From the NCBI GenBank assembly GCA_001767955.1, contig MEMO01000021.1:8344-72343 (forward strand): a DNA stretch of 64,000 nt, given 5' to 3'. The notes below the pieces were generated by a model. The model saw only the letters and a list, made by a program, of their open reading frames with translations, made no database searches and was not told the origin of the DNA. Origin of the DNA: Alphaproteobacteria bacterium RIFCSPLOWO2_01_FULL_40_26. Lineage in GTDB: Bacteria > Pseudomonadota > Alphaproteobacteria > Rickettsiales > UBA1997. Positions within the stretch are counted from its first letter, which is position 1; the number at the start of each line of letters is the position of its first letter. This document shows, one piece after another, positions 1-63,710 of this stretch. Position numbers and translations under genes: made by a program.

Positions 1-901
1 TTTTTAGCGCATTTTCTGATGTGCCGCAGGTGATTATAACATCACATGAGAAATTTTTTAGCATCTTTGCCGCTGAAATTTTTGTGATCATACCTCCAGT
101 TCCAACCAAAGAACCAGCACTTCCAGCCATATTTTCAATTTCCTTGGTAATTTCAAAAACTTCCGTGATCAGATTAGAGCCTGTATTCAAACCCACCACA
201 TTTCGCTTTTGCCCAAATTTTGGCTCGTTTTTTGGCAAAATTTTTTGCAGTATGCCAGATACAGCGGCAAAATTTTGCCAAAAAGTCGCACAAAATTTGG
301 ACAAAATCGAAACGCGCTGGGTTTGAATACAGGCTCTGGCATTTTTGTGAGTTCTGGGATTTTTTTCATAAAGCCCATCGATATCGGAAAACAGAATAAG
401 CAAATCAGCATCAGCCATTTGCGCCACGCGCGCAGCGAGACGATCATTATCTCCAATTCTGATTTCATCGACCGCCACCGAATCATTTTCATTGATGATT
501 GGAATTACCGAATTCTTCAGCAAGGTTTCAACGGTATTTTTGCAGTTGAGATAGCGATCACGCACATTGCAATCAGAAGCGGTGAGAAGAATTTGTGCCG
601 CCTGCAATTTCTGCCTGAAAAAAAAATCGCGATAAAAACCCATGAGATGGATTTGCCCAATCGCTGCCGCCGCCTGTTTTTCTTCCAAAGAAAGTTTTTT
701 GTTTACTGTTTTTAAAGCTTGACGTCCCAGGGCAATTGCTCCCGAAGAAACAATGATGATCTGAAAATTTTTTTTCACCAAATCGGCAATATTTGCGGTA
801 AAATTTTTCAGCCATTTTTCGCGCAATTTTCCTTCCGAAACCAAAAGCGATGAACCGATTTTTATGACCAGTTTTTTTTTCTCTTTGAGATCAAATTTCA
901 T
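1..901 (-). CDS. proB: Glutamate 5-kinase ProB; its C-terminal end runs off the window start; contains an in-frame 162-nt palindromic-element insertion
   Basis: Manual translation from ATG 901-899 (absent from the ORF track because there is no stop in the window): MKFDLKEKKKLVIKIGSSLL..IIVSSGAIALG..INENDSVAVDEIRIGDNDRLAARVA..GTGGMITKISAA. The frame stays open down to nt 2. Confidence 0.8.
   Translation of the reverse strand, partial: MKFDLKEKKKLVIKIGSSLLVSEGKLREKWLKNFTANIADLVKKNFQIIIVSSGAIALGRQALKTVNKKLSLEEKQAAAAIGQIHLMGFYRDFFFRQKLQAAQILLTASDCNVRDRYLNCKNTVETLLKNSVIPIINENDSVAVDEIRIGDNDRLAARVAQMADADLLILFSDIDGLYEKNPRTHKNARACIQTQRVSILSKFCATFWQNFAAVSGILQKILPKNEPKFGQKRNVVGLNTGSNLITEVFEITKEIENMAGSAGSLVGTGGMITKISAAKMLKNFSCDVIITCGTSENALK
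177..336. mobile_element. 160-bp palindromic MITE-like element, family A copy A1 (inside proB)
   Basis: Termini GAGCCTGTATTCAAACCC / GGGTTTGAATACAGGCTC. Its reverse complement matches 19991-20150 with only a few mismatches. Confidence 0.85.
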
Positions 902-1932
902 CGTTTTAATCCTTTTTGCTCACGAGCGCGGCGTATTTCTTCGCGATAAACAATATTTTCAAGTAATGGCAATGGATATGATGAAAATGATCCTTGGCCC
1001 TTTAAAACATAAATTCCGACAGTGCGATTTACTTGCTGCTGCATGCCATCTTTAGTAATGATATCTGGAAAATCTTCGCCAACTGAACGTAATTCAACCA
1101 GATCTTTGGCAACACCATTTTTGATCAGATAATTTTTAATCACATCAGCGCGGTCCAAAGCGATATTCTGGTTGTATAATTCAAGACCAGCGCGGTCTGC
1201 GTTGCCAACCAGTAAAATTCTAAAATCACCATTTAAGGTTTTGAGATATTTTAGAATCTTCACCAACTCTTTGCTGGCACGGTCATTGAGTTTGAAATTG
1301 TTAAAATCGAAAAGAATTTCAAAACGCTCAAATTCCGGCTCTTTGATTTCAACTTTAGGGGTTTTATCTTTTTTGAGGTCATCAATGTAATGCTCGATTT
1401 CATCAAGCAGCTTCACGAAACGTTCACGACATTCGGCAAGTTCACTATTGCGAAAAATTACTTTCGATTCACGCGCAATCCAGCAATCGTAGAGATAAGA
1501 CAAATGGGCGGTTTGAATGGGAAGATAGAACGTCACATGTGAGTTGGAGTGTAAAATATTTTCCAATCTCTTTTGCATCAGAATCATCTCTTCCATTTGC
1601 CCCAAATCAGCTTTCCAACCCATCGGATTTTCTGGTACAAACTCTTCTCCCGCAGCAATTTTTAAACCTTTTTTGGCAAAATAGTCAGAAGCATTTTTAT
1701 CCTTAACCACAAGCAATCTGCGCGAAAAAGACAGATATTCCAAAGCCAAATAGGATTTGTATCCACCTTTGGTTTTAAGCGATAATCCTTCGTTAGATAA
1801 AAGCTGCAGGGACGTGGTGCAGGAGGTGATTACGAGTATGGTGGTTAATGTCAGAATTATTTTCGTGCTTCGTGTAGCCTGCGCTGAACTTGTTTCAGTG
1901 TGCTTCGTGCTTCGTAAATTTTTAAAGAACAT
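898..1932 (-). CDS. OmpA/MotB-domain (peptidoglycan-associated) lipoprotein-like protein
   Basis: C-terminal OmpA-like block LLVGNADRAGLELYNQNIALDRADVIKNYLIKNGV; N-terminal hydrophobic segment ending in Cys (ILVITSC). The stop overlaps the proB start (ATGA). Confidence 0.6.
   Translation of the reverse strand: MFFKNLRSTKHTETSSAQATRSTKIILTLTTILVITSCTTSLQLLSNEGLSLKTKGGYKSYLALEYLSFSRRLLVVKDKNASDYFAKKGLKIAAGEEFVPENPMGWKADLGQMEEMILMQKRLENILHSNSHVTFYLPIQTAHLSYLYDCWIARESKVIFRNSELAECRERFVKLLDEIEHYIDDLKKDKTPKVEIKEPEFERFEILFDFNNFKLNDRASKELVKILKYLKTLNGDFRILLVGNADRAGLELYNQNIALDRADVIKNYLIKNGVAKDLVELRSVGEDFPDIITKDGMQQQVNRTVGIYVLKGQGSFSSYPLPLLENIVYREEIRRAREQKGLKR
1863..1915. repeat. Heptad-arm hairpin repeat, subfamily C' (copy 1), inside the N-terminal coding region of the OmpA-like gene
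   Basis: TCGTGCTTCGTGTAGCCTGCGCTGAACTTGTTTCAGTGTGCTTCGTGCTTCGT is the reverse complement of 18359-18413 with 2 mismatches. Confidence 0.8.
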
Positions 1933-5324: not shown

Positions 5325-5710
5325 TTTTCTGATGCCAGTTTCGATTATCCAAAAACGGTTAAATTCAATACCACCCACTACCGGCATCTATCAGTTTTTT
5401 GATGACAAAACCCAACTCCTTTATGTCGGCAAGGCCAAGAATCTGCACAAACGCGTCAGTAGTTATACCAAGGAAAATCTGCTTTCGCCGCGCATTGCCC
5501 GCATGGTTCTTCTCACAAAAAAAATTGAGATAATTCAAACCGAAAATGAGGTGGAAGCGCTTTTGCTTGAGCACAATCTCATCAAAAAATTCCAACCCAA
5601 ATTCAATATTCTGCTGCGCGATGACAAAACCTTCCCACAAATTCTAATCACCAATCACAACTTCCCCCAAATCACCAAATTTCGTTCATTAAGATTGGAT
5701 AATATCGAGG

Positions 5711-5738
5711 CACAAAGCACGAAGCACGAAGCACGAAA
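5711..5738. repeat. Family C heptad arm (AGCACGA)x3 translated in frame inside uvrC
   Basis: CACAAAGCACGAAGCACGAAGCACGAAA encodes ..AQSTKHEARN.. Confidence 0.75.
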
Positions 5739-6460
5739 CCTGCATTTCGGACCATTCGCTTCAGCCCATGATGTCAATTACACCATCGATATTTTACGCA
5801 AAATTTTCCGCCTGCGCAATTGTTCCGATGCCGAATTCAAATCGCGCAAAAAACCATGTTTGGAATATCAAATAAAAAGATGCTATGCGCCATGTGTTGG
5901 CCTGATTTCACAAGAAGAATATGGCAGTGAAGTGCAAAATGCGCTAAATTTTTTAAGCGGAAAATCAGCTAGGTTGCAACATGATCTGACGCAAAAAATG
6001 CAACAATTCAGCGATAATTTTGAATATGAAAAAGCGATGCAAATTCGCGATCAGATCAAAGCATTAAACTCGATTCAAACCAAACAAAACATCAATGTTG
6101 GCGAAACCAAAGATTTCGACATAATCACCATTGCAACGAGTGGTGATATGGTCTGCGTTTATGTTTCATTTTATCGTGGCGGGCAAAATTTTGGAGCAAA
6201 ACCATATTTTTTTGAAAACAAAGATGAAGAAATTCTCAATGAATTTCTTGGTCAGTTTTATTTGTCAAACGCTCCTCCGAGCTTGATTATGATGAATCGC
6301 AAACTTTTGGAAAAAAAGTCGATGGAAGATTTTATAACAAGAATCGCTGGCAAAAAAGTTGAGATAATTTCCCCCAAAAAAGGCGCTAAATTTGAGTTGA
6401 TTACAAATCAGGAAAATATCGCCAGACAAAATCTCGAACAAAAAATTTCACAAAATTTAA

Positions 6461-6620
6461 GAACCTGTCCTGAATCTTTTTTAACCCCAGATTTTAGCAT
6501 GTTTTTAGCGCTTTTTTGACAAAATTACGAAGCGTATCTGGAAATACGGTGAGTAATTTTGTCAAAAAATAAGCAAAAACAGGGTAAAATATGGGGTTAA
6601 AAAAGATTTAGGACAGGTTC
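6461..6620. mobile_element. 160-bp palindromic MITE-like element, family B copy B1 (reverse orientation), interrupting uvrC
   Basis: IRs GAACCTGTCCTGAATCTTTTTTAACCCC / GGGGTTAAAAAAGATTTAGGACAGGTTC, flanked by a TAA direct repeat. The core matches 41077-41236, 49737-49896 and 59547-59706. Confidence 0.9.
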
Positions 6621-7145
6621 TAAGCATAAAAGAATTGCTGCTCGAAGTGAAAAAAATTTTCAGCCTGCCAAAAATTCCACAAAAAATTGAAGTTTATGAC
6701 AATAGCCACATTAGCGGAAGCAATGCGGTTGGCGCTATGATTGCCGCTGGTTTGGAAGGGTTTATCAAAAGTGGATATCGCAAATTCAATATTCGTTTTG
6801 AACACAAAAATCGCGATGACACCGCAATGCTTTATGAAGTTCTAAAAAGAAGATTTTCCAAGCAACATGATGGCCGGCCAGATTTCGTTATTATCGATGG
6901 TGGTTTAACTCAATTAAAGGCGGCACAAGAAATTTTCGACGAGATGAAAATCAAAATCCCTTTTGTCTGCATGTCGAAAGGAAAAAACAGAAATGCCGGA
7001 GAGGAAAATTTTCACATGATTGGAAAACAGTCTTTTACGCTACCAAAACATTCGCCAATAATGCACTATTTACAACGCTTGCGCGACGAGTCTCATCGCT
7101 TCGCCATCATGACTCACAGAAAAAAACGCGGGAAATTCTTATTTC

Positions 7146-8663
7146 TTACTTCTCAATAATCTCATCAACCACCATCTGATATTTACCACCAATCTGTTCT
7201 TCAAACACTTCCAAATGTTCGCCAAACCGGTCGTGAATTTTAAAAATAATTTTTGGGTTTTTGTCGTTTTTATTGACCTTGTACAAATCCCATAATTCAT
7301 AGTGCCGATGCCCGTTTTCATAGGCCACTTCAACTTTGATTTCACTGTCAAAAATAACCTGTAAAATTGTCATCTCCCATTTTTTGCCACGCTTTTGTGC
7401 AATAGCAGAAAGGCTGGTGATATTGGCAAAATCCGGCCCCAAAATATCATCAGTACTGTCGCGTAGAAGATACAAATTAAACGCCAAAGTCAGAGATTTG
7501 TTTTTTACTCTCCAAAGATAAGTGGTTGAAAGATTCTCGATGGTGTTTGCGGCAACATTGTGCTTCAAAAAAAACTTTTCGATTTTTTTGGTCAAATCAG
7601 GATATTTTTTAAAATCTTCGCGCCAGGAAATCTGATGATTGCGACTATCCGCAGCAATAAGGCGCGCATCTTCCGCTACATGTCCGCCTTCAATATTATA
7701 AAAATTCAAACTTCTTTGCCATTTAGTCACATAATTGCGATCAATGATTTTGTTTTTCTCAAAAAACTTTGCTTTGCCCACAAAAACTTTCCCGAGATTT
7801 TTTTTATCATGAATGCCGGTATAGTTTTCCTGCAGAAATTTTTTTAACGATTCTTGCGATTTGATTGAGGTTTTTTGCTGCGCTAATTTCTGCAATTCTT
7901 TGTCTTTCTTGAGTTCATCTGCCACAAAGGCAAAACTTTTTGTGTTTGATCTAACTGCAATTTTGACCAATTTTTTATCAGCCCTGATTTTTGGCGGCGC
8001 AAACTCAAGCAACAGACCATTATCTTCAAAAGCATCAGCTGCAATTTCAGGAATTTCTTTGAGACGATCAGAAGCAAATTTGTAATTGCGCGAGTCAATT
8101 GCAATCATCCGCTTCATGAAAAGTTTATTATCGAGCAAACTCCAACTTGCATATTGCAAAGAATCGCGGCTCAAATAAGTGGCCTTCTCCATAAAAGCCT
8201 GACTGGAGCGTAATTCCGGCGCGGCAAATTTCAAAGTTTCTGGACTAATTTTGAGCAGACGTTCAACAAAAACGGCATCTTCGCGCAAAGAATCATCGGC
8301 ATATTGAAACTGTTCGTAATCAAGCAATACCGCCTTTAAAATCAAAGTGCGGTCACGCCTGAAACATTCCGGCAAATCTTTGATGGCGTTTTGATTTTTC
8401 TTGCCGAGCTCTTCAAGAATTTTGTCGTAATAGCCACTGATATTGTTGCAATAATCCTCAGCAAAAAGGGAAGAACAGCAGAAGAAAAAAACAGCGGTGA
8501 AAATATTGATAAAGATTGTTCTCAAAATCCTGTGTCTTGTTCGTGCTTCGTGCTTCGTGCTTCGTGCTTCGATAATTTTAATCCACGAAGCACGAAGCAC
8601 GATGCACGATGCACGAAATATTCCGGACACAAAATTTTGCTTAATAACCTTGATAAACTTCAT
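7146..8663 (-). CDS. Secreted DUF4116-repeat protein of unknown function
   Basis: Repeated ..L.(Y/F)A...L..D...V..A(V/I).. units (LILKAVLLDYEQFQYADDSLRED, LLLEFAPPKIRADKKLVKIAV). A hydrophobic signal-like segment follows the repeat-encoded N-terminus. The start overlaps the nuoK stop by 1 nt. Confidence 0.5.
   Translation of the reverse strand: MKFIKVIKQNFVSGIFRASCIVLRASWIKIIEARSTKHEARTRHRILRTIFINIFTAVFFFCCSSLFAEDYCNNISGYYDKILEELGKKNQNAIKDLPECFRRDRTLILKAVLLDYEQFQYADDSLREDAVFVERLLKISPETLKFAAPELRSSQAFMEKATYLSRDSLQYASWSLLDNKLFMKRMIAIDSRNYKFASDRLKEIPEIAADAFEDNGLLLEFAPPKIRADKKLVKIAVRSNTKSFAFVADELKKDKELQKLAQQKTSIKSQESLKKFLQENYTGIHDKKNLGKVFVGKAKFFEKNKIIDRNYVTKWQRSLNFYNIEGGHVAEDARLIAADSRNHQISWREDFKKYPDLTKKIEKFFLKHNVAANTIENLSTTYLWRVKNKSLTLAFNLYLLRDSTDDILGPDFANITSLSAIAQKRGKKWEMTILQVIFDSEIKVEVAYENGHRHYELWDLYKVNKNDKNPKIIFKIHDRFGEHLEVFEEQIGGKYQMVVDEIIEK
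8531..8631. repeat. Family C heptad-arm hairpin (full copy C3), translated at the 5' end of the DUF4116 gene
   Basis: TGTGTC..(CTTCGTG)x4..CGATAATTTTAATC..(CACGAAG/CACGATG)x5..GACACA. Confidence 0.85.
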
Positions 8664-9618: not shown

Positions 9619-9706
9619 TGTGTCGGCGCATTTCGTGCTTCGTGCTTCGTGCGTCGTGCTTCGGTAGTTCTAAACCACGAAGCACGATGCACGAAATAAA
9701 GACACA
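9619..9706. repeat. Family C heptad-arm hairpin (copy C4), intergenic between nuoI and nuoJ
   Basis: TGTGTC..TTTCGTGCTTCGTGCTTCGTGCGTCGTGCTTCGG..CCACGAAGCACGATGCACGAAA..GACACA. Confidence 0.85.
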
Positions 9707-11741: not shown

Positions 11742-11742
11742 A

Positions 11743-11902
11743 GGCACTGTTAACTAATTATTTTTTTCGGGATTTTTCGCTAATTTTTAGCGACTTTTTT
11801 AAAAAATTTCGCCGCTGTATCAGATATACTGCAAGAAATTTTTTGAAAAAATGAGCAAAAATTTGCGGAAAAGCACGGAAAAAATAATTAGTTAACAGTG
11901 CC
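11743..11902. mobile_element. 160-bp palindromic MITE-like element, family G copy G1
   Basis: IRs GGCACTGTTAACTAATTATTTTTT / AAAAAATAATTAGTTAACAGTGCC with TA flanks. The core is similar to family A and G2. Confidence 0.85.
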
Positions 11903-13648
11903 TAAGATAATCCTGATTTCACTGCCTTCACTTTTCTGCGATTTGATTTCCAAAATTCCGCCCTGCTTTTCAATCAGATATTTTATGACCGGAAGCGAGA
12001 AAGTGAGAGAATCGACATTCTGAATATTTCTTGTGCTTTGTAACGCGATTTTTATTTCATTTTCTGTCATGCCACAACCTTGATCTTTAACGATGATTTC
12101 AATTGCCTTCGATTTTTTTACTCCACAGGCAATATGAATTTTTTTGAGCTCATTTTTATTTGAAATATTGCGAGCAATCACTTCAACCACGGTGCCGTTT
12201 TGGCTGTATCTTACAGCATTTCCTATCAGGCTTGTGATAATCTGCTTCATGCGCTTTTGATCAAGTGATGGCAGTTCATACAGCTTGCTATCAACTTTTG
12301 CCGTCAAAATGATGTCGCAACTTTCCGCATATTTTTTCGATTCATTAATCACCTTGTTAATGATCTTTGCCAAATTTATTGCTCTTGAGCTTTTTCTGAT
12401 TTTAAGACTGTCATTTTTGATGTGATTCATATCAAGCGCCTCACTCAAAAAATTGTGAAAATCATATGAAATAGTAATGATGTTTCGGCTCAATTCCAAA
12501 TTTGTTTTCAGCTTTTGCAATGCTTGCTGATCCTCATTTTTTAGATTTTTAACAAGTGAACCAAGATCATTTTTTATAATTTCTGCACAACCCTGAATAC
12601 CAAAAATAAAATTTTTAAATTCATGCGCGACTTTAACCAGAAATTCGGTTTTTTCTTCATTTGCCAACTCTGATTCCTGCTGTAGTCGTAAAATCCGTGA
12701 AGTCTGCTGTTTTTCACGCAAAACTAAAACCATTAGAACTATCAACCCAAACAGGGTCGAAAAAATTTCAAATAATCGTAAATGAGTGGTACGGAGTATC
12801 TCCATGGCTATGGCTTGCGGGTTGTATTTCAAAATTAAAACATATGGATAGGACTTTACCTTCTTCACTAAAAAAGCATGGCGATTTCCAAATAAAGCAA
12901 TGTCAAAAAATTTCTTATCCTCATGCAAATAAATTTGATTCAAAATCTTGCTGATCTTCGTGTTGTTAGCGGCATCATCATTTGATCTGTCAACTCCAAA
13001 GAATTGATGATCCCCATATAAAATCGGCACTTCATTTTTGCCAAAAAGACTAAATTTTATTTCCGGATTTTGTATCACCTCATGCATCAACTTCGCAAGA
13101 GTCTTCACTTCAAATCCGAGAACCAAAGCTCCAAGATATTTACCATTTTGATCTCTCAATCCCATAGCTGCCGGAATCAGCCATTTTTTTGTGCTCAAGC
13201 CAATTATCGGAGCTTCAAAATGCAAAATGCCAGGATATTGCTCTGTCATCGCGATATAAGACCGGCTCGAAACATCCATTGGTTTTGCCAGAATTCCATC
13301 ATTGGAAGTGATGACAAGTTGATAATTTTTGTCTATCCATGAAAGCACAGTCCAAGAAAAATTGGCAGAAAAATTTTCTCCGGTGCGATAAATGCGTAAA
13401 ATCCTTCCGATATAATCTTTATCAAACGGATTTTCTGCGATATTGAGATTGATATTTTTCATCATCAAAGTGGTGTAGTTCATCCTATCGCTGAAATTTC
13501 CTTCCAGCCTTGCCATTTCTACTTCCAGATCTGATCTAATTTTATCTTGCGCACTATTTTTTATGCGAATTGCAAACCAGGTTAAAAACAAGATTATGGT
13601 AAGAAAAATAACCAAAAATATCAGAGAAATTTTGTAATCTTTTTTCAC
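11888..13648 (-). CDS. Sensor histidine kinase with periplasmic Cache-like domain (no adjacent response regulator)
   Basis: H-box VAHEFKNFIFGIQG; ATP-lid VKDQGCGMTENE; an N-terminal TM and a second TM before the H-box. The last 4 codons and the stop lie in element G1. Confidence 0.8.
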   Translation of the reverse strand: MKKDYKISLIFLVIFLTIILFLTWFAIRIKNSAQDKIRSDLEVEMARLEGNFSDRMNYTTLMMKNINLNIAENPFDKDYIGRILRIYRTGENFSANFSWTVLSWIDKNYQLVITSNDGILAKPMDVSSRSYIAMTEQYPGILHFEAPIIGLSTKKWLIPAAMGLRDQNGKYLGALVLGFEVKTLAKLMHEVIQNPEIKFSLFGKNEVPILYGDHQFFGVDRSNDDAANNTKISKILNQIYLHEDKKFFDIALFGNRHAFLVKKVKSYPYVLILKYNPQAIAMEILRTTHLRLFEIFSTLFGLIVLMVLVLREKQQTSRILRLQQESELANEEKTEFLVKVAHEFKNFIFGIQGCAEIIKNDLGSLVKNLKNEDQQALQKLKTNLELSRNIITISYDFHNFLSEALDMNHIKNDSLKIRKSSRAINLAKIINKVINESKKYAESCDIILTAKVDSKLYELPSLDQKRMKQIITSLIGNAVRYSQNGTVVEVIARNISNKNELKKIHIACGVKKSKAIEIIVKDQGCGMTENEIKIALQSTRNIQNVDSLTFSLPVIKYLIEKQGGILEIKSQKSEGSEIRIILGTVN

Positions 13649-14810: not shown

Positions 14811-14859
14811 TGAATTTTTTTCAGATAGGAAAAATATGGCTTATGCCAAAATAGAGTTA

Positions 14860-14955
14860 CCCCTCACCCCAACCCTCTCCCACAAGGGGAGAGGGAGTTG
14901 CACCGAATTCGGATTAACTCCCTCTCCCCTTGTGGGAGAGGGTTGGGGTGAGGGG
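14860..14955. repeat. 96-bp GC-rich palindromic element, family D copy D1
   Basis: CCCCTCACCCCAACCCTCTCCCACAAGGGGAGAGGGAG..loop..CTCCCTCTCCCCTTGTGGGAGAGGGTTGGGGTGAGGGG with TA flanks. It matches 59328-59423 in reverse orientation. Confidence 0.9.
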
Positions 14956-15005
14956 TAGTTAATATTCTACGCCGACTATTTTAACTCTACGTCATTTTCA
15001 AATCA

Positions 15006-17821: not shown

Positions 17822-17910
17822 TTCTCATTCAAACGTCAACAACCCGTCATCCTTGGCCACTTTAGTGGCCCGAGGATCTCTTGGGTTTGAAAACAGGCTC
17901 TAGACAGTTT

Positions 17911-18438
17911 CTAATCAGCTCCAAACACTTCGCTCTTCTGCACCCACCCCTTTTTGCTTTCCATCTTCATCGCACACCATTCATCAACACATTTCAAATA
18001 ATCGCCAATCACATTGTTTTCCAATCGCAAGATGATGCGCGACTTCTCGTTTGGCTTGCTATGCATATTGATAAAATCCTTGGTGGTAAGCGCCATTAAG
18101 GTTCGTTTTTTGGTAAGCAGACTTTGCATAGCCCAACCGCTCTGTCCTTCATAATCCTCAATTTCACTCCAATTGTCATATTCGCTAATCACATGAACCG
18201 GCAAGCCGCGCAATTTGAAAGTGAATTTAACCGGATAATTCTGCCCAGGCCCGGAGCGAATATTGGTTTCATTCGAACGCAACGAAGCAAAATAATTTAC
18301 TTCAGAGATTTGTTTGGCAGCAAAAGCGGGGGAAACAACAAAATACAAACTCAACAACCCACGAAGCACGAAGCACACTGAAACAAGTTCAGTGCAGGCT
18401 GCACGAAGCACGATTTTATTTATTGGATTTTGTTTCAT
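17911..18438 (-). CDS. SH3-like domain protein (DUF1058 type), secreted
   Basis: NIRSGPGQNYPVKFTFKLRGLPVHVISEYDNWSEIEDYEGQSGW plus a second SH3-like half; signal-like N-terminus from MKQNPINK. Confidence 0.6.
   Translation of the reverse strand: MKQNPINKIVLRAACTELVSVCFVLRGLLSLYFVVSPAFAAKQISEVNYFASLRSNETNIRSGPGQNYPVKFTFKLRGLPVHVISEYDNWSEIEDYEGQSGWAMQSLLTKKRTLMALTTKDFINMHSKPNEKSRIILRLENNVIGDYLKCVDEWCAMKMESKKGWVQKSEVFGAD
18359..18413. repeat. Heptad-arm hairpin repeat, subfamily C' (copy 2), in the N-terminal coding region of the SH3 protein
   Basis: Reverse complement of 1863-1915; encodes ..RAACTELVSVCFVLRG.. Confidence 0.8.
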
Positions 18439-19753
18439 GAAATTTTTTTCCACCCCGTGGAATTGAAACCTGTTTGGCGCGAGCAACCGCCAAGTCATCC
18501 ATGATTACATCTTTTGTAATCACGCTTCCAGCGCCAATCACGGCGCTGTCGCCGATTTCAAGCGGCGCAACTAAAGCCGTGTTTGAACCAACAAAAACAT
18601 TTTTGCCAATTGTGGTTTTGAATTTGTTATAGCCATCGTAATTGCAGGTGATTACGCCAGCACCGATATTGGAATCTTCGCCAATTTCAGAATCTCCAAC
18701 ATAACTCAAATGATTGATTTTTGCACCGCGTTTTATGTTGGATTTTTTTACTTCGACAAAATTTCCGATGCGCACATTTTCTGAAATTTTTGTTTGCGGA
18801 CGAATTCTTGCAAATGGCCCTACAACAACGTCTGACGCGATTTCAGCGCCTTCGATATGACAGAAAGATCTGATCTCAACATTTTTTTCAATCACAACTT
18901 TAGCGCCGAAAAAAACATGCGGATGAATCACGACATCATGCGAAATTTTAGTGTCGAAAGAAAAATAAACTGAAGATGGATCAAGCAAAGTTATGCCTTC
19001 ATCCATCATTTTTTTTCTGATTTGGTTTTGTTTTATTTCTTCAATTTTTGCCAGTTCAGCACGCGAATTTACGCCTAAAACTTTTTCCATCGAAGTTTTG
19101 ATGAATGTGCGTTTCAGGCCCATTTTACCAGCTATGGTAACGATGTCGGTTAGATAAAATTCGCCGGCTTCGTTGTTGTCGCCAATTTGTGAAATCATTT
19201 CAGAAATTTTTTCGCCATCAATTGCCATCACGCCAGAATTGCACAAAGCGATTTTTCTTTCTTCAGCGCTGGCATCTTTGAATTCAACGATACTTTCAAT
19301 ATGACCTTTCTCATCAATAATCAGGCGACCGTAGCGATTTTCCTCCTCATCATCAAAACCTAAAATGCAAAGCGAAAAACTATCAAGTTTGTCAACCATT
19401 TTTTTTAAAGTGATGTGCTCGATTAGTGGCGTGTCGCCATAAAGCACCAAAACTTTTTCACCAAGATTTTTGATTTTTCCAAGAGCTGTTTGAACTGCAT
19501 GCGCTGTGCCTTTGCGCTCTTTTTGTATAACAAAGGAAATTTCCGTTTTTGGGTGAGCGGCAAGAATTTTTTCCACAGAATCTTTCATCTCATCCGAAAT
19601 GACGATGGTGATATTTTGTGGATGCAAAATCTTCGCCTCATCAATCACCATATTGAGCATCTCGCGACCAGCAATTTTATGCATCACTTTCGGCAAATCC
19701 GATTTCATTCTCGTTCCTTTACCAGCAGCAAGGATGATGATGGAGAGAGTCAT
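18416..19753 (-). CDS. glmU: Bifunctional GlmU (UDP-GlcNAc pyrophosphorylase / GlcN-1-P acetyltransferase)
   Basis: ILAAGKGTRMKS; C-terminal hexapeptide repeats. ATG 19753 overlaps the yoeB stop (ATGA). Confidence 0.9.
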   Translation of the reverse strand: MTLSIIILAAGKGTRMKSDLPKVMHKIAGREMLNMVIDEAKILHPQNITIVISDEMKDSVEKILAAHPKTEISFVIQKERKGTAHAVQTALGKIKNLGEKVLVLYGDTPLIEHITLKKMVDKLDSFSLCILGFDDEEENRYGRLIIDEKGHIESIVEFKDASAEERKIALCNSGVMAIDGEKISEMISQIGDNNEAGEFYLTDIVTIAGKMGLKRTFIKTSMEKVLGVNSRAELAKIEEIKQNQIRKKMMDEGITLLDPSSVYFSFDTKISHDVVIHPHVFFGAKVVIEKNVEIRSFCHIEGAEIASDVVVGPFARIRPQTKISENVRIGNFVEVKKSNIKRGAKINHLSYVGDSEIGEDSNIGAGVITCNYDGYNKFKTTIGKNVFVGSNTALVAPLEIGDSAVIGAGSVITKDVIMDDLAVARAKQVSIPRGGKKFHETKSNK

Positions 19754-20175
19754 GGCTGATAATGATAGCGACATTGCACAATGATCACACGACCATCTTG
19801 AATCATGTAAACTAGCCGGTGCTCATCATTGATCCGACGCGACCAAAAACCGGATAAATTACCTCTCAACGCTTCTGGTTTTCCGGTTCCAGAAAATGGA
19901 GTACGAGCAATTTCTTTAATTAAAGCATTAATTCGCTTGATCATCGTTCTATCATGTTGCTGCCAATAAACATAGTCTTCCAAGGCATTAGAGCCTGTTT
20001 TCAAACCCAGCGCGTTTCGATTTTGCCCAAATTTTGTGCGACTTTTTGGCAAAATTTTGCCGCTGTATCTGGCATACTGCAAAAAATTTTGCCAAAAAAC
20101 GAGCCAAAATTTGGGCAAAAGCGAAATGTGGTGGGTTTGAAAACAGGCTCTAAAATCAAAACTAATTTGTTTCAT
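19750..20175 (-). CDS. yoeB: YoeB/Txe-family toxin carrying a 54-aa in-frame palindromic-element insertion after residue 8
   Basis: ..ALEDYVYWQQHD..RTPFSGTGKPEALRGNLSGFWSRRINDEHRLVYMI..VIIVQCRYHY. Confidence 0.8.
   Translation of the reverse strand: MKQISFDFRACFQTHHISLLPKFWLVFWQNFLQYARYSGKILPKSRTKFGQNRNALGLKTGSNALEDYVYWQQHDRTMIKRINALIKEIARTPFSGTGKPEALRGNLSGFWSRRINDEHRLVYMIQDGRVIIVQCRYHYQP
19991..20150. mobile_element. 160-bp palindromic MITE-like element, family A copy A2 (inside yoeB)
   Basis: GAGCCTGTTTTCAAACCC..GGGTTTGAAAACAGGCTC with TA flanks. Confidence 0.9.
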
Positions 20176-20425
20176 GTTCGATCAAGTTGTGATGCTGATA
20201 TTTTTCATTTTTTACATTTTCGATCGACTCCATAAGTCTTTTGCGATTTGTCGGACTACGTGTTAAATAGAGGGTTTCTTCGTAACTGCTAAAATCTTCC
20301 AGAGATAACATCACCAACGGTTCTTTTGAATTGCTGGTGATTATTGTTGGAACATGATCTCGCAAAATCTCATTAGCAATTTTAGTAAAATTTTTCTGCA
20401 CTTCAGAAAATTTTCTTACTCGCAT
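20162..20425 (-). CDS. yefM: YefM/Phd-family antitoxin
   Basis: PLVMLSLEDFSSYEETLYLTRSPTNRKRLMESI; overlaps the yoeB start. Confidence 0.85.
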   Translation of the reverse strand: MRVRKFSEVQKNFTKIANEILRDHVPTIITSNSKEPLVMLSLEDFSSYEETLYLTRSPTNRKRLMESIENVKNEKYQHHNLIEHETN

Positions 20426-20434
20426 AATTTCCCC

Positions 20435-21559
<1,125 letters not shown>

Positions 21560-21601
21560 TTAGAGACACAACACTTCTGATAACAACCAAATTTTTGGTT
21601 G

Positions 21602-30341: not shown

Positions 30342-31016
30342 TCAAATTAGAACCTGCTCTCTAAAACTGAAATAACCCTCTTTCGCAATAATCAGATGAT
30401 CTAACACTTTGATTTCCAAATTCTTCAGCGCGGCGGAAATTTCATTGGTGGTTTTGATGTCATTTGCTGAAGCGCGTAAATCGCCGCCTGGATGATTATG
30501 CAACAAAATCACAAAAGAAGCATGAAGCATCAGAGCCTTTCTCGCCACTGTTTTGGCGCTTACAACAACATGATCATTTTCTCCGATGCCAAGCAATTCG
30601 TCCTCAATGAGACGGTATTTTTTATCGAGAAAAAGCACGCGAAAAACTTCGTAATCCAAATCTTTCAGAGCGACGCTGGCGTAGTCCAAAACTGCTTGCC
30701 AATCATTTAAAACCGGTTTTTTGCGCGCGGAATTTTTTAAAACACGATGCAGAATTTCGCTGATGATTTTGATTTGAGTAATTGCCGCCTCTCCTACCCC
30801 CTCAACACTTCTCAACATTTCAACATCGGCGCTAATCACTGCGGAAATATCGCCAAATTTTGTTATTAATTTTTTGGCGATCGCTTTGGTATCCTGCCTT
30901 GGATGCGCGGCAAAAAGCAGGATTTCCAACAATTCATAATCGTGGAGTTCCTTTCCAAGCGAGGCGAGAAATTTTTTTCTAACGCGTGATCTATGTCCGA
31001 GATAATCGTCTATCAT
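30342..31016 (-). CDS. radC: RadC-family JAB-domain protein
   Basis: ILLHNHPGGD JAMM motif; HhH-like N-terminal half. Confidence 0.85.
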   Translation of the reverse strand: MIDDYLGHRSRVRKKFLASLGKELHDYELLEILLFAAHPRQDTKAIAKKLITKFGDISAVISADVEMLRSVEGVGEAAITQIKIISEILHRVLKNSARKKPVLNDWQAVLDYASVALKDLDYEVFRVLFLDKKYRLIEDELLGIGENDHVVVSAKTVARKALMLHASFVILLHNHPGGDLRASANDIKTTNEISAALKNLEIKVLDHLIIAKEGYFSFREQVLI

Positions 31017-31183
31017 AACCCCAATAACGCTTAAGGAATTATGGCTTAAGTCTACAAACTCTGAGTAAAACCAATAAACTCCACCACACTGTCACCCCGC
31101 GGGGTGACAGTGTGGTGAGATTTGTGATTTAGCTTAGAGTCTGTAAATTTGAATCTGGGTTTCTTAAACGTTATTGGGGTTAT
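31015..31183. mobile_element. Palindromic MITE-like element, family F copy F1
   Basis: IRs ATAACCCCAATAACGCTTAAG / CTTAAACGTTATTGGGGTTAT; centre CCACCACACTGTCACCCCGC|GGGGTGACAGTGTGGTGAG. Confidence 0.85.
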
Positions 31184-31802
31184 CATAAATTCGTGGTGTA
31201 ATTTTATCGGTTGTAAAATTTTTTACTCCCAAAATTTCAAGCTCGCGCATTCTGTTTAAATCATTCACCGTCCAGGCAAAAATTTCAGTATCAGGAAATT
31301 TTTTCATAAAATTTTCATCTATCAGATCATGAAAAATTGACAGGAATTTTATGTTTTTTGGCAATGCATTGATATCTTTATCGCAAACCACGACCAGCTG
31401 CGCATCATCACCAAAAACCTCAATAATTATGGCAAAAAATTTTTCTGCGATTTTGTAGTCGGTGATAAAAGGGGCAAAATAAATTTTTTTTAAATCTATA
31501 AATGCTTTATCAAAATCTTTCTTGACCATAATCATAACTTCCTTCGCATTTTCTTCGGTTAGATTTTTAAAATCTAACCAGTAATCCATTTCATTACCGA
31601 AAAGCAGAAAATCACTAAGACTTGTCAAACTTTCTCCGGCTCTTGGTTGATCATGCGCTAAAACCAGGTTTCTTTTCAGAACCCAAATATCAAACTCAAC
31701 AGCGCGAAAGCCGTGTTTGTAAGCTTTCTTTAAACTTGCAACTGAATGTTCGGCGATATTTTTATGCGGACAAAAACCGCGATGGGCAAATAACCGTATC
31801 AT
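31164..31802 (-). CDS. Glycerophosphodiester phosphodiesterase-family protein
   Basis: FAHRGF..H..ASL..A...GF.AVEFDIW..LVLAHD pattern. The last 6 codons (DNPNNV) lie in element F1. Confidence 0.6.
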   Translation of the reverse strand: MIRLFAHRGFCPHKNIAEHSVASLKKAYKHGFRAVEFDIWVLKRNLVLAHDQPRAGESLTSLSDFLLFGNEMDYWLDFKNLTEENAKEVMIMVKKDFDKAFIDLKKIYFAPFITDYKIAEKFFAIIIEVFGDDAQLVVVCDKDINALPKNIKFLSIFHDLIDENFMKKFPDTEIFAWTVNDLNRMRELEILGVKNFTTDKITPRIYDNPNNV

Positions 31803-34268: not shown

Positions 34269-34286
34269 CCCTGATCTGGGATTAGT

Positions 34287-34523
34287 ATAACCCCAATAAC
34301 GCTTAAGGAATTATGGCTTAAGTCTACAAACTCTAAGTAAAACCAATAAACTCCACCACACTGTCACCCCGCACTTGTTGCGGGGTCCATTTGGTCGCAA
34401 CCAATAAAATCAAGTCTTTGACGAGATGGACCCCGCAACAAGTGCGGGGTGACAGTGTGGTGAGATTTGTGATTTAGCTTAGAGTCTGTAAATTTGAATC
34501 TGGGTTTCTTAAACGTTATTGGG
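34287..34523. mobile_element. Family F copy F2 with a nested family E double hairpin (34373-34443)
   Basis: Same arms as F1, but the centre carries ACTTGTTGCGGGGTCC..GGACCCCGCAACAAGT. A 12-bp direct repeat GGGATTAGTATA occurs at 34278-34289 and 34521-34532. Confidence 0.85.
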
Positions 34524-41090: not shown

Positions 41091-41236
41091 TCTTTTTTAA
41101 CCCCATATTTTACCCTGTTTTTGCTTATTTTTTGACAAAATTACTCACCGTATTTCCAGATACGCTTCGTAATTTTGTCAAAAAAGCGCTAAAAACATGC
41201 TAAAATCTGGGGTTAAAAAAGATCATAAACAGTTTC
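41077..41236. mobile_element. 160-bp palindromic MITE-like element, family B copy B2
   Basis: GAAACTGTTTATAATCTTTTTTAACCCC..GGGGTTAAAAAAGATCATAAACAGTTTC, flanked by a TTA direct repeat. Confidence 0.9.
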
Positions 41237-42175
41237 TTAGAACCAGTATTTAAAAAGCTCTGGCAATTTGGTTTTAATTTTCAGTTTCCCAATTTTGATT
41301 TCATGGGCATGAAGACAAAGACGATCTGAAATATCTTTTCGCAACACTTTTTTTCCGCCGTATTTTACATCATTGATGATGGGATGTCCGATTTCCTTGC
41401 AATGAACACGGAGCTGATGGGTGCGGCCAGTAAGCGGTTTTAACTCAAGCAATGAATAATCTGTAAAACTTTTTAAAACTTTAAATTCAGTAATCGCCTC
41501 TTTTCCCTCCTCAAAATCAGGAGAAACTTTTTCGTTTTTGCCTTGAATTTTTTTGCGCAGAGGAATGTTAATTATGCCATGCGATTTTTTTGGAATGCCG
41601 TAAACCAAGGCTAGATATGTCTTCTTGATGGTTTTGTTTTTAAAAGCTTCAGTCAGAAATTCAGTGGATTTTGCATTTTTGGCTATAAGTAAAATACCAG
41701 AAGTGTCTTTGTCGAGACGGTGAACTAATTGCCATTTCTCGTGCTTCGTGCTTCGTGCTTCGTGCTTCGGAATTATGGAATTTTGGTGAAATAAAAAGTC
41801 ATCAACCGAAACATCTATGCCGCTTCCTCCTTGAGTGGCAAGGCCTGAAGGCTTATCAAGCGCGATCAGATTTTCATCTTCAAAAATTATCCACGACAAA
41901 AATTTTTGCATTTTTGCGGTAGAAATTTTTGTTCTTTGTTTCTGATTTTCACGACGGTTTTTTAGATCAGAAAAAATTTCTACCTGATCTGCATCTTTGA
42001 TTTTATAGGCTGAATCAACTCTTGCGCCATTGACTTTCACTTTCTTTTCACGAATCAGTTTTTGCGCCAGAGCAAAAGAAATATCAAATTTTTTACAGAG
42101 AAATTTATCGAGACGAAGGCCTGCTAACTCTTGATTAGCATGGCTTAGGGCGTGTTGACATTCATTTTTATTCAC
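41237..42175 (-). CDS. RluA-family pseudouridine synthase (RluC/RluD-like) with S4 domain and in-frame heptad-repeat insertion
   Basis: S4 LRLDKFL..; catalytic HRLDKDTSG; TGRTHQLRVH. The GTG start lies inside element G2. Confidence 0.85.
   Translation of the reverse strand: MNKNECQHALSHANQELAGLRLDKFLCKKFDISFALAQKLIREKKVKVNGARVDSAYKIKDADQVEIFSDLKNRRENQKQRTKISTAKMQKFLSWIIFEDENLIALDKPSGLATQGGSGIDVSVDDFLFHQNSIIPKHEARSTKHEKWQLVHRLDKDTSGILLIAKNAKSTEFLTEAFKNKTIKKTYLALVYGIPKKSHGIINIPLRKKIQGKNEKVSPDFEEGKEAITEFKVLKSFTDYSLLELKPLTGRTHQLRVHCKEIGHPIINDVKYGGKKVLRKDISDRLCLHAHEIKIGKLKIKTKLPELFKYWF
41748..41770. repeat. Family C heptad arm (GTGCTTC)x~4, translated in frame in the pseudouridine synthase gene
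   Basis: CTCGTGCTTCGTGCTTCGTGCTTCGTGCTTCGG encodes ..PKHEARSTKHEK.. immediately upstream of the HRLD motif. Confidence 0.8.
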
Positions 42176-42307
42176 AGTTTTTCAGAAATTTTTAGCGACT
42201 TTTTTGAAGAATTTTGAAGCTGTATTAGACATACTGCAAAAAATTCTTCAAAAAAATGAGCAAAAATTTGTGGAAAAATGGGAATAAAAATGAATGTCAA
42301 CACGCCC
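42148..42307. mobile_element. 160-bp palindromic MITE-like element, family G copy G2
   Basis: IRs GGGCGTGTTGACATTCATTTTTATTC / GAATAAAAATGAATGTCAACACGCCC with TA flanks. The core is shared with G1 and family A. Confidence 0.85.
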
Positions 42308-42699
42308 TAATTGCATATCAATTTCATCAAATGAAAACCGAAAAACAAAGCGACAATTGAAATTACGACAGAAGAAATCGCATAAATCGCGGCTTGAGGA
42401 TATTGGCCGGCAGTGGCTAGACGGAAGAAATCAAGCGAAAAAGATGAAAAGGTTGTGAACCCTCCGAGAAAACCGATGAGCAAAAAATTCTTCAAACGCG
42501 GATCAAAATTGTCAAAATTTTTGATGATGAAATAGTAGATAATGCCTGCAAACATTGATCCCGCAACATTCACAAAAAAAGTTCCCCAAGGAAAATTTGT
42601 TAGAGAATGGTTGAGTTTCGTGATTGCTTCCGACGAAAGATAACGCGCAACAGAACCTAAAGCACCACCGATTGCGATTAAAATCAAATTTGTCATCAA
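42307..42699 (-). CDS. crcB: Fluoride ion channel CrcB
   Basis: 130 aa, 4 TM; [10 protein letters not shown] and [12 protein letters not shown]. Confidence 0.9.
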
Positions 42700-46390: not shown

Positions 46391-46450
46391 TTTGTGCTTC
46401 GTGCCTCGTGCTTCGTGCTTCGTTAATTTTGAACCACGAAGCACGAAAAC
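46391..46450. repeat. Family C heptad-arm hairpin (copy C7) just upstream of gltX
   Basis: TTTGTGCTTCGTGCCTCGTGCTTCGTGCTTCGTTAATTTTGAACCACGAAGCACGAAAAC. Confidence 0.8.
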
Positions 46451-46539
46451 ATAAAACTTTAGGAACAATCAAAAAATCATTTTACATTTTGCATTACATT
46501 TTGATTTTTGCATTTTGATTTTGCATTCGAAATTAATTA

Positions 46540-48240: not shown

Positions 48241-48249
48241 AGCCTGTTA

Positions 48250-48409
48250 GAGCCTGTCTTAAAACCCAACGTGTCTCGATTTTCCATAAATTTTGAGCGA
48301 CTTTTTGGCAAAATTTTGCCGCTGTATCTGGCATACTGCAAAAAATTTTGCCAAAAAACGAGCCAAAATTTATGGAAAAGCGAGGCGCGGTGGGTTTTAA
48401 GACAGGCTC
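48250..48409. mobile_element. 160-bp palindromic MITE-like element, family A copy A3 (intergenic)
   Basis: GAGCCTGTCTTAAAACCC..GGGTTTTAAGACAGGCTC. The core is identical to A2 and the arms differ by paired substitutions. It is preceded by a 10-bp duplication TTAGAGCCTG (48237-48246 / 48247-48256). Confidence 0.9.
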
Positions 48410-48450
48410 TAGCTAATTATTTTAAACAAAATTCGTAAATAGAAAATTTT

Positions 48451-49711: not shown

Positions 49712-49737
49712 TTTAAGATTTAGGATTTAGGATTTAG
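49711..49737. repeat. (GATTTAG)n 7-bp microsatellite abutting the left end of element B3
   Basis: ATTTAA GATTTAG GATTTAG GATTTAG; the last G is the first nt of B3. Confidence 0.8.
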
Positions 49738-49896: not shown

Positions 49897-49924
49897 TTAG
49901 AATTTGGGTTTAAAAGTTTTCATC

Positions 49925-59298: not shown

Positions 59299-59327
59299 AA
59301 TTTACTTTACTCTCCCTAGCTCATTTA

Positions 59328-59706: not shown

Positions 59707-59739
59707 TTAGATTTGCGCGTCCAGTAATCCACTTCAAAA

Positions 59740-63708: not shown

Positions 63709-63710
63709 CT

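What the first reader, a model, noticed from the sequence alone, without database searches (positions are those of the whole stretch)
177..336. 160-bp palindromic element translated in frame inside proB (RPE-like behaviour)
proB (minus strand, ATG 901) stays open straight through element A1. The translation reads ..LYEKNPRTHKNA[RACIQTQRVSILSKFCATFWQNFAAVSGILQKILPKNEPKFGQKRNVVGLNTGS]NLITEVFEITKEIENMAGSAGSLVGTGGMITK.. The element (160 nt) plus 2 flanking nt gives 162 nt, or 54 codons, so the downstream conserved kinase motifs stay in frame. ORF-track entries 21..326(+), 209..715(+) and 187..492(-), plus the proB frame, show at least two stop-free frames per strand across this AT-rich element. 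That is unlikely by chance. In-frame palindromic selfish DNA in housekeeping proteins is established for Rickettsia palindromic elements. I see no sequence resemblance to those, so this may be an independent family.
Basis: partly seen in the sequence, partly recalled or inferred. Interest (0 to 1): 0.7.

Follow-up and report, generated by a model that had tools for sequence, protein, structure and literature searches.

The report
In-frame palindromic mobile element inside proB
A 162-base palindromic "jumping" DNA element sits inside the proline-synthesis gene proB of an uncultured groundwater alphaproteobacterium without breaking its reading frame, and the same element does this in at least four other genes; this behaviour is best known from Rickettsia, and here it comes from an unrelated new element family.

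Summary
Window 176-337 is one copy of a dispersed, near-perfect 162-nt palindrome: 5 copies in the window and about 29 distinct loci in metagenome contigs of the same population. Every full-length aligned copy is exactly 162 nt, and all loci except proB carry T...A flanks.

The copy lies inside proB on the minus strand and adds exactly 54 codons without a stop. All 119 closest ProB orthologues (369-389 aa, against 425 aa here) lack these residues. PDB glutamate 5-kinases align on both sides of the block. AlphaFold2 places the block as a low-confidence excursion at a beta-hairpin tip of an otherwise confident kinase fold.

The same family is in frame inside yoeB (window 19990-20151). Elsewhere in the population it is in frame inside a HEPN toxin, an Abi_2 protein and an intein in IscU.

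It behaves as a TA-flanked, non-autonomous MITE. Its net length (160 nt + TA) never shifts a frame, and its GC-richer subfamilies are stop-free in 3-4 of 6 frames. I found no similarity to Rickettsia RPE peptides, Rfam families or plasmids, and no parent transposase.

Translation of the insert and activity of the enzyme are not shown. This is a new family of a known kind and is moderately interesting.

The parts
176..337 (-). Element A1: a 162-nt palindromic MITE-like element (160 nt + TA) inserted in frame in proB. It encodes RACIQTQRVSILSKFCATFWQNFAAVSGILQKILPKNEPKFGQKRNVVGLNTGS.
   Evidence: The RNA hairpin is -97.2 kcal/mol, z = -13. It is 98% identical to A3 (I3).
1..901 (-). proB (glutamate 5-kinase), codons 1-300. 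The gene runs off the left end of the window. The full gene is 425 codons in L005:5703-6980.
   Evidence: Pfam AA_kinase, 3.9e-39. PDB glutamate 5-kinases, 1e-48. Full ORF. Orthologue alignments.
19990..20151 (+). Element A3, in frame inside the yoeB toxin gene after codon 8. It is in the opposite orientation to A1 relative to its host gene and is read in the equivalent 'RAC...' frame.
19750..20175 (-). yoeB toxin ORF of 141 aa (87 aa + 54-aa insert). It overlaps the end of yefM by 14 nt.
   Evidence: Pfam YoeB_toxin matches residues 63-139 to profile positions 4-80 of 80. PDB 2a6q matches residues 63-139 to chain residues 8-84. ORF list.
20162..20425 (-). yefM/phd antitoxin gene upstream of yoeB.
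   Evidence: Pfam PhdYeFM_antitox on the same gene in L040.
11742..11903 (.). Element A2 (AT-rich subfamily), intergenic between a histidine-kinase gene and pgpA. The kinase ORF's stop codon lies inside the element.
42147..42308 (.). Element A4 (AT-rich subfamily), intergenic between crcB and a pseudouridine synthase gene.
48249..48410 (.). Element A5 (third subfamily), intergenic. Its terminal 10 nt are duplicated in tandem at 48238-48257.
17880..17902 (-). A solitary terminal repeat of family A (a remnant or partial copy).
6460..6621 (.). Sister-family element B1 inside uvrC. It has related termini (AGAACCTGT) and aligns with family A over its full length. It carries stops in all frames and its net length is 163 nt, so uvrC is split.

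Best explanation
A1 is a copy of a non-autonomous DNA transposon: a MITE shaped as a full-length foldback palindrome. It inserted at a TA dinucleotide in proB, between the codons for the conserved ...KNA and K-LI(S/T)EVFEI... residues. The family's net insertion is 160 nt plus one duplicated TA, which is 162 nt or 54 codons, so an insertion into a coding sequence never shifts the downstream frame. In the GC-richer subfamilies, 3-4 of the 6 possible phase and orientation combinations have no stop codon. A sizeable fraction of genic insertions therefore lengthen the host protein by 54 residues instead of truncating it. Such copies survive only where the host protein tolerates an extra loop or is dispensable. 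In ProB the site is the tip of a beta-hairpin in the C-lobe of the amino-acid-kinase domain, and the peptide is predicted to be a floppy, partly helical surface excursion. The same filter explains the copies in YoeB (after residue 8), a HEPN toxin (between helices), Abi_2 and the non-splicing part of an IscU intein. Shown here: the repeat family, its uniform length and T...A flanks, the exact 54-aa insertions relative to homologues, the intact 425-codon ORF in several independent assemblies, and normal conservation of ProB outside the insert. Inferred: the TA target-site duplication, mobilisation in trans by a TA-targeting DDE transposase (IS630/Tc1-mariner-like or similar) not present in the DNA examined, translation of the insert, and retained enzyme activity. 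I put retained activity at about 0.5-0.6. The -97 kcal/mol hairpin in the mRNA probably lowers expression and would be an RNase III substrate; the window encodes rnc.
For: Repeat family: 5 copies in the window. About 29 distinct loci were found in the window plus metagenome and assembly loci, all flanked by T...A except the proB copy. The 27 family-A copies and 4 family-B copies aligned in full are all exactly 162 nt between AG and CT; one 160-nt variant and some partial copies were left out of that alignment. The palindrome is maintained across subfamilies: 41 of 64 hairpin pairs show compensatory double changes and almost none are broken.

Insertion in proB: PDB glutamate 5-kinases match query residues 5-187 and 240-297 to adjacent chain residues. 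All 119 best homologues are 360-389 aa, mostly 371, against 425 here. The alignments show a clean 54-column gap.

Not an assembly error: the identical 425-aa protein occurs on 6 contigs from NCBI, JGI and ENA assemblies, and L005 and L006 are base-identical to the window across the gene.

No sign of decay outside the insert: ProB deviates at 5 of 154 columns that are at least 90% conserved, against an orthologue mean of 4.2.

Structure: AlphaFold2 gives mean pLDDT 81.7. The insert scores 31-48 and lies between strands at residues 177-178 and 244-245. The kinase domain superposes on 2w21 and 2ako with TM 0.90.

Recurrence: the element is in frame in YoeB. In the HEPN toxin P0141, PDB 1wty matches residues 11-78 to chain 3-70 and residues 132-178 to chain 70-115, and a different element frame is used. 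It is also in frame in Abi_2 and in an IscU intein. All genic in-frame copies belong to the stop-poor subfamilies.

Literature: TA termini, TIRs, stable hairpins and in-frame fusions are typical of bacterial MITEs (PMC5896051, PMC2229807, PMC10969869).
Against: I recovered no empty site in a close relative. The nearest insert-free ProB is only about 79% identical, so the TA duplication and recent mobility are inferred. No autonomous element with these termini was found in the 64-kb window or in about 0.4 Mb of related loci. One of the two TAs is missing at the proB copy (gccAGAG), which requires a later T-to-C change. The centre of the element is more conserved between subfamilies than its termini. 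That is unusual for a transposase-bound MITE and hints at another constraint. Several observations are compatible with proB being dispensable or already impaired. One NCBI MAG (L001) carries a 32-nt duplication inside the element that frameshifts proB. One scaffold (L003) lacks the 3' half of proB. The sister element breaks uvrC.
Confidence: 0.85

Rival explanations
1. The identification as a MITE is right, but the insertion has inactivated proB, or the gene was already dispensable. The open frame then says nothing about function. It is an automatic result of the 162-nt net length and the stop-free frame, and the insertion is too young for decay to show.
For: Frame preservation follows from the element's length, and 4 of 6 frames are open. 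A1 differs from the A3-type consensus at only 3 of 162 positions, so the insertion is young. L001 carries a frameshifting 32-nt duplication in the element, and L003 lacks the 3' half of proB. uvrC is split by the sister element. The mRNA contains a -97 kcal/mol hairpin, and rnc is present in the window at 61978-62661.
Against: The 425-codon ORF is intact and identical on 6 contigs from independent assemblies. Conserved-site deviations are typical of functional orthologues. The insertion site is a hairpin tip away from the conserved GTGGM and NENDS motifs. In Rickettsia, a Gmk protein bearing an RPE insert was shown to be active (as cited in PMC2229807).
Confidence: 0.35
2. The insertion is an assembly artefact: a repeat was wrongly threaded into proB by short-read assemblers.
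For: Contigs often break at or diverge after these repeats. L004 ends inside the element. L002 and L003 diverge exactly at its distal end. L001 has an internal duplication.
Against: Both flanks of the element are proB, in the correct order and frame. The same junctions appear in MEGAHIT-style ENA contigs, ANAN16 scaffolds, JGI contigs and NCBI MAGs. A chimera would not place the two halves of one gene 162 nt apart in phase.
Confidence: 0.03
3. The 54-residue module has been co-opted: it gives ProB and the other hosts a selected new property, such as regulation, localisation or interaction.
For: The same peptide frame ('RAC...GS') is used in proB, yoeB, the IscU intein, Abi_2 and a membrane protein. 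A weakly predicted helix spans residues 197-215.
Against: Identical sequence occurs in intergenic copies. The peptide is not conserved across subfamilies, and many of those have stops. What is conserved is base pairing, not coding. All 3 nucleotide differences between A1 and its consensus change an amino acid. The peptide has low pLDDT.
Confidence: 0.05

Closest known systems
Rickettsia palindromic elements (RPE-1 and related families; Ogata et al. 2000, 2002, as summarised in PMC10969869 and PMC2229807)
   Same: Both are 100-160-nt palindromic repeats with terminal inverted repeats and a long stable hairpin. Both are dispersed in intergenic DNA and repeatedly found in frame inside conserved protein genes, where they add a peptide at sites compatible with the fold. 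The host is an alphaproteobacterium in both cases.
   Different: The host is an uncultured Rifle-aquifer alphaproteobacterium, not Rickettsia. No similarity to RPE-bearing proteins was detected. The length is strictly uniform at 162 nt and nearly all copies carry T...A flanks, whereas RPEs are 105-146 nt and TA is inconsistent. Only about 5 internal genic copies were seen among about 30 loci, against 19 of 44 for RPE-1.
TA-flanked bacterial MITEs (Correia/NEMIS of Neisseria, ERIC/IRU, RUP, Coxiella QMITE1/2, cyanobacterial Nezha)
   Same: They share TIRs, 5'-TA-3' at both termini, small size, stable stem-loops, and occasional in-frame or terminal fusions with host ORFs, including supplying stop codons (PMC2229807, PMC5896051, PMC3184786).
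   Different: There is no sequence relationship: no Rfam family matched above threshold and no plasmid matched. Here the whole element is a near-perfect palindrome maintained by compensatory changes. The centre is more conserved than the ends. No parent IS is known.
IS630/Tc1-mariner-derived MITEs
   Same: TA flanks consistent with a 2-bp TA target-site duplication, and short TIRs.
   Different: No IS630-type transposase gene and no matching full-length IS were found. The assignment is an inference from the TA flanks alone.

Membership tests
Bacterial MITE (non-autonomous TIR element) | Terminal inverted repeats | tested here: met
   AGAGCCTGT(N)TTCAAACCCA... pairs with ...TGGGTTTGAA(N)ACAGGCTCT. 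The arms are 69-73 nt and 84-87% complementary.
Bacterial MITE (non-autonomous TIR element) | Small size (about 100-400 bp) with no transposase gene | tested here: met
   The element is 162 nt. The only ORFs are read-through frames with no Pfam match of their own.
Bacterial MITE (non-autonomous TIR element) | Multiple dispersed copies | tested here: met
   5 copies in the window and about 29 distinct loci overall.
Bacterial MITE (non-autonomous TIR element) | Target-site duplication | tested here: inconclusive
   T...A flanks every locus except one side of the proB copy. The net gain is exactly 54 aa in ProB, YoeB and the HEPN toxin, as 160 nt + TA predicts. No empty site was recovered to prove a duplication.
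Bacterial MITE (non-autonomous TIR element) | A cognate autonomous IS with matching TIRs | tested here: not met
   No TIR pairs at IS-like spacing were found in any held sequence. No transposase Pfam domain appears in the gene maps covering the window. Only a small part of the genome was examined.
Rickettsia palindromic elements (RPE) | Sequence homology to an RPE family, and a host in the genus Rickettsia | tested here: not met
   Peptide searches against 5.8 billion and 1.84 billion proteins returned only this population and a few related environmental ORFs, with no Rickettsia protein. The named hits are Alphaproteobacteria bacterium RIFCSPLOWO2_01_FULL_40_26. I could not compare the DNA directly with RPE consensus sequences.
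Rickettsia palindromic elements (RPE) | In-frame insertion into conserved protein-coding genes | tested here: met
   Found in proB, yoeB, a HEPN toxin, Abi_2 and an IscU intein.
Rickettsia palindromic elements (RPE) | The insert lies at a surface position compatible with the fold, and the protein is made and active | tested here: inconclusive
   AlphaFold2 places the insert at a hairpin tip with pLDDT 31-48, while the domain matches glutamate 5-kinase structures with TM 0.90. Expression and activity cannot be tested with these tools.
REP/BIME elements (RAYT-mobilised) | Short (20-40 nt) imperfect palindromes with a conserved GTAG-type head, and an associated RAYT gene | tested here: not met
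   The element is a 162-nt foldback with TA flanks, and no Y1 transposase appears in the gene maps.
Glutamate 5-kinase (ProB) | AA_kinase domain plus C-terminal PUA domain, with the conserved motifs intact | tested here: met
   Pfam AA_kinase matched directly. PF00696 and PF01472 (PUA) are recorded for the full-length protein. All 52 invariant columns are retained, and 5 of 154 highly conserved columns deviate.

The most novel reading that the evidence does not exclude
Family A is not merely tolerated in genes. It has been shaped for coding-sequence compatibility: 160 nt + TA makes exactly 54 codons, and 3-4 of 6 frames are kept stop-free in the actively spreading subfamilies. That would let it colonise a gene-dense genome. 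It would be an independent, non-Rickettsia origin of 'protein-coding palindromes', and young enough (98-100% identical copies) to test experimentally.
Probability: 0.2. Interest if true: 0.65.

Novelty: new member of a known kind. Interest (0 to 1): 0.45.

Why it matters
Repeated in-frame insertion of palindromic selfish DNA into conserved proteins has essentially one textbook example, the Rickettsia RPEs. Reviews still ask whether the same route of protein evolution operates elsewhere (PMC10969869). This population shows an unrelated, very young family doing the same thing in a biosynthetic enzyme, two toxin genes, an abortive-infection-type protein and an intein. A sister family breaks uvrC. 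The case offers a natural experiment on which protein sites tolerate a 54-residue insertion. It also bears on annotation: NCBI calls yoeB and the 3' part of proB from start codons inside the element, and assemblies break or go chimeric at these repeats. It does not reveal a new kind of mechanism.

Tried and rejected
1. Rfam. The gathering-threshold scan of the window found only one tRNA. The E-value scan of 140-380 gave only sub-threshold matches to long-hairpin miRNA precursors (15-46 bits, against cut-offs of 56-211). No known RNA family matches.
2. Plasmid collection. A distant blastn search found no match.
3. GTDB representative genomes. Scanning with a 23-base core pattern gave one genuine extra copy, at the end of a contig in a Lake Tanganyika Alphaproteobacteria MAG (L007), and one chance hit in Fusibacter. 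The host genome is evidently not a representative there.
4. Metagenome scan. Of 31 loci, 4 were chance matches (L018, L022, L036, L038).
5. Parent IS. I looked for terminal repeats at IS-like spacing in all held DNA and found only solo or partial ends.
6. Promoter inside A1. None was found. One terminator-like site lies on the antisense strand only.
7. Empty site. The 90% clusters of ProB, YoeB, Abi_2 and the HEPN toxin contain no insert-free allele. The shorter members are annotation starts inside the element.
8. L002 and L003 variants, where proB is fused to recR or followed by relB. I read these as repeat-mediated chimeras or unresolved assembly bubbles rather than evidence about proB, but I could not prove it.
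9. The long proteins hit in the representative search (P0152, a TPR protein; P0157, a tandem-repeat protein) are spurious low-complexity matches.
10. '3n length as a superfamily trait'. I rejected this. Family B aligns as 162 nt, but TA-to-TA accounting gives a net 163 nt, which matches the +1 frame shift seen in uvrC.

Full report
**Observation.** Reading window 2-901 on the minus strand gives 300 sense codons from the ATG at 901. The segment 176-337 is a near-perfect palindrome, AGAGCCTGTATTC...GAATACAGGCTCT, of 162 nt. It is a member of a repeat family. Repeat finding and alignment give four more copies at 11742-11903, 19990-20151, 42147-42308 and 48249-48410. A1 is 98% identical to the copy at 19990-20151, in the opposite orientation. 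A 23-nt terminal probe hits 7 sites against 0 in 100 shuffles. As RNA, the proB-sense strand folds into a single hairpin of -97.2 kcal/mol, z = -13.

**It is an insertion.** Pfam finds AA_kinase. PDB glutamate 5-kinases align to residues 5-187 and 240-297 of the query, with adjacent residues of the chain (191/192 in 4q1t, 184/185 in E. coli 2w21), so about 54 query residues have no counterpart. The complete gene, recovered from identical metagenome contigs, is 425 codons with AA_kinase and PUA domains. The 119 best homologues among 5.8 billion proteins are 360-389 aa, mostly 371, which is 425 minus 54. Alignments show one clean 54-column gap between ...KNA(K) and LI(S/T)EVFEITKEIE, in proteins that are otherwise 72-79% identical in the 12-sequence set.

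**It is not an assembly error or obvious decay.** The identical 425-aa protein is on 6 contigs from NCBI, JGI and ENA assemblies. Two ENA contigs are base-identical to the window across the gene. Assemblies do misbehave at this repeat. L004 ends inside it. L002 and L003 diverge exactly at its far end. One NCBI MAG (L001, GCA_001768015.1) has a 32-nt internal duplication that splits proB into 248-aa and 190-aa ORFs. Outside the insert, ProB differs from the consensus at 5 of 154 columns that are at least 90% conserved. That is typical of its orthologues, which average 4.2; 41 of the 119 deviate at least as much.

**Where it sits in the protein.** AlphaFold2, run with the 120-sequence alignment, gives mean pLDDT 81.7. 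The insert (residues 189-242) scores 31-48, with one weak helix at 197-215, and lies between short strands at 177-178 and 244-245. It therefore extends the tip of a beta-hairpin. The kinase domain superposes on 2w21 and 2ako at TM 0.90. This is compatible with a tolerated surface loop but does not prove it. AlphaFold2 would model the conserved domain the same way whether or not the insert is harmful.

**The family.** A core-pattern scan of JGI metagenomes, added to the contigs already held, gave about 29 distinct loci. Two of the 31 flank groups are duplicates of window loci. The 27 family-A copies aligned in full are all exactly 162 nt from AG to CT; one 160-nt variant and some partial copies were left out of the alignment. 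Every locus has T before and A after the core, except the proB copy, which has gccAGAG on one side. Several subfamilies exist. Three have 40-43% GC: the A3/A1 type, the A5 type and a 'CTTCAAACTCATCACAG' type. Several others have 28-31% GC. A sister family B has four copies in the window, termini AGAA(C/A)CTGT, and aligns with A along its whole length. Across all of them the palindrome is preserved by compensatory change: 41 of 64 pairs carry double substitutions and almost none are broken. The central 70 nt is more conserved than the ends. No parent IS, transposase gene or IS-spaced terminal pair was found in the window or related loci. There is no Rfam family, no plasmid match and no Rickettsia protein. 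A few diverged copies occur in other environmental organisms (L007, L034, P0150, P0151).

**Coding compatibility.** The cores of A1 and A3 have stop counts of [0,1,0,0,1,0] in the six frames. The A5 type and the third GC-richer type have 3 open frames. The AT-rich subfamilies and family B have 13-20 stops and 0-2 open frames. Against dinucleotide shuffles, the depletion in A1 has P < 0.001 for total stops and 0.005 for open frames. Against shuffled palindromes, which is the fairer null, P is 0.009 and 0.04. For A3 the values are weaker, 0.07 and 0.14. The more important point is arithmetic. If TA is duplicated, the net gain is 160 + 2 = 162 nt, so the downstream frame is always preserved. Only stop content then decides whether the host ORF survives. 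Family B has a net length of 163 nt when counted TA to TA, and its copy in uvrC shifts the frame by +1 as well as introducing stops.

**Recurrence in genes.** A search with the six-frame peptides found the element inside other real proteins of the same population.
- The window copy at 19990-20151 lies in yoeB. The 141-aa ORF starts MKQISFDF, then reads the 54-aa element, then continues ALEDYVYWQQ.... Pfam YoeB_toxin covers residues 63-139 (profile positions 4-80 of 80), and E. coli YoeB residues 8-84 align to 63-139. The start overlaps yefM as is usual for this operon.
- A HEPN/HI0074-type toxin (179 aa) aligns to PDB 1wty residues 3-70 and 70-115 on either side of a 54-aa block. That block is read in a different element frame (LEPVLKP...).
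- An Abi_2 protein carries the element internally.
- An IscU protein carries an intein with the element inside the intein.
- Other hits are C-terminal or N-terminal run-ons: a membrane protein, recR and a SurA-like gene.

All internal in-frame cases use stop-poor subfamilies. About 5 of about 30 loci are internal to genes. That is far below the roughly 90% expected for random insertion in a bacterial genome (general knowledge). It fits strong purifying selection, with survival at permissive sites or in dispensable genes.

**Mechanism and its status.** The best reading is a TA-targeting, non-autonomous foldback MITE mobilised in trans. Its length and stop-poor frames make many genic insertions non-truncating. 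The family, the exact insertions and the intact ORF are shown. The TA duplication, the transposase type, translation of the insert and ProB activity are inferred. The main rival concerns consequence, not identity: proB may be impaired or dispensable. Supporting that rival, the insertion is young (3 of 162 differences from its consensus, all non-synonymous). The mRNA carries a hairpin of about 64 base pairs, and the window encodes RNase III at 61978-62661. One MAG has a frameshifted copy, and uvrC is already broken by the sister element.

**Comparison and novelty.** The behaviour matches Rickettsia RPEs: palindromic, dispersed, and repeatedly in frame in conserved genes (PMC2229807, PMC10969869). 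Membership fails on host and on detectable homology. The TA termini, TIRs and hairpin place it among bacterial MITEs (PMC5896051, PMC3184786), for which in-frame fusions are described as 'not unusual'. It is a new family of a known kind. Its unusual details are the strictly uniform length, the full-length covarying palindrome, and the insertions in toxin genes and an intein. The organism is the Rifle-aquifer population named Alphaproteobacteria bacterium RIFCSPLOWO2_01_FULL_40_26 and its sibling MAGs. I found no paper that mentions it.

Noticed in passing
window 5332-7159 (element B1 at 6460-6621): uvrC is split into a 395-aa ORF (GIY-YIG, UVR) and a 174-aa ORF (RNase H-like and HhH end) by a sister-family palindromic element. 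The element has stops in every frame and a net +1 frame shift. The gene is either a pseudogene or a two-piece gene.
   Followed up: partly
window 6460-6621, 41076-41237, 49736-49897, 59546-59707: Family B is a second palindromic family of about 162 nt, with termini AGAA(C/A)CTGT. It aligns along its full length with family A, so the two form a superfamily. B3 lies immediately upstream of tRNA-Cys (49925-49998).
   Followed up: partly
window 19750-20175: A second in-frame copy (A3) lies inside the yoeB toxin gene. NCBI annotation of sibling MAGs instead calls an 86-aa YoeB starting at a codon inside the element (P0134), and likewise a 190-aa 3' proB ORF (P0130).
   Followed up: yes
window 1863-1915, 5667-5729, 8540-8616, 9632-9694, 18350-18414, 41738-41800, 46391-46453: A separate family of hairpins has arms made of tandem heptamers, (TTCGTGC)n ... 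(GCACGAA)n. They lie mostly at gene ends and may act as terminator-like or REP-like elements.
   Followed up: no
window 21486-21560, 34361-34464, 63804-63907; flanking repeats at 31011-31192, 34282-34537, 63709-63794: There are GC-rich hairpin repeats (GACCCCGCAACAAGTGCGGGGTGACA) with associated repeats of about 90 nt. This is another dispersed repeat family.
   Followed up: no
window 14847-14957 and 59323-59436; also just 3' of proB in L005:6979-7136: A third palindromic family ('C', ATTTACCCCTCACCCCAACCCTCTCCCACAAGGGGAGAGGGAG...) is present. Together with A, it brackets the segment that differs in scaffold L003.
   Followed up: no
window 17880-17902 and 48238-48257: There is a solitary family-A terminal repeat at 17880-17902. 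At the left end of A5, the terminal 10 nt are duplicated in tandem.
   Followed up: no
window 11888-11903, 42307-42309, 41076-41090: Several intergenic copies abut or overlap gene ends and supply the stop codon. The histidine-kinase ORF ends inside A2, the crcB-like ORF ends at the A4 flank, and the pheS ORF ends inside B2.
   Followed up: partly
L014:7594-7755 (protein P0121): IscU in this population carries an intein (CLPSN...SHN|CGS), and a family-A element is in frame inside the intein. Some database proteins (P0123) are chimeras of this gene and the Abi_2 gene, joined at the element.
   Followed up: partly
L001:11596-11789; L002 and L003 downstream of the element: Three variants occur at the proB copy. 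There is a 32-nt internal duplication in NCBI MAG GCA_001768015.1. Two contigs switch to recR or to relB sequence exactly at the element's end. These are likely repeat-mediated misassemblies or recombinants.
   Followed up: partly
window 61978-62661 (+): An RNase III gene (rnc) is present. This matters because every transcribed copy of these elements forms a long perfect duplex.
   Followed up: no
P0151, P0150 (not in the window): Diverged copies of the element peptide (72-78% identity) occur in ORFs from other environmental organisms. One follows the Walker A region of a LolD-like ABC ATPase. The family is therefore not confined to one population.
   Followed up: no
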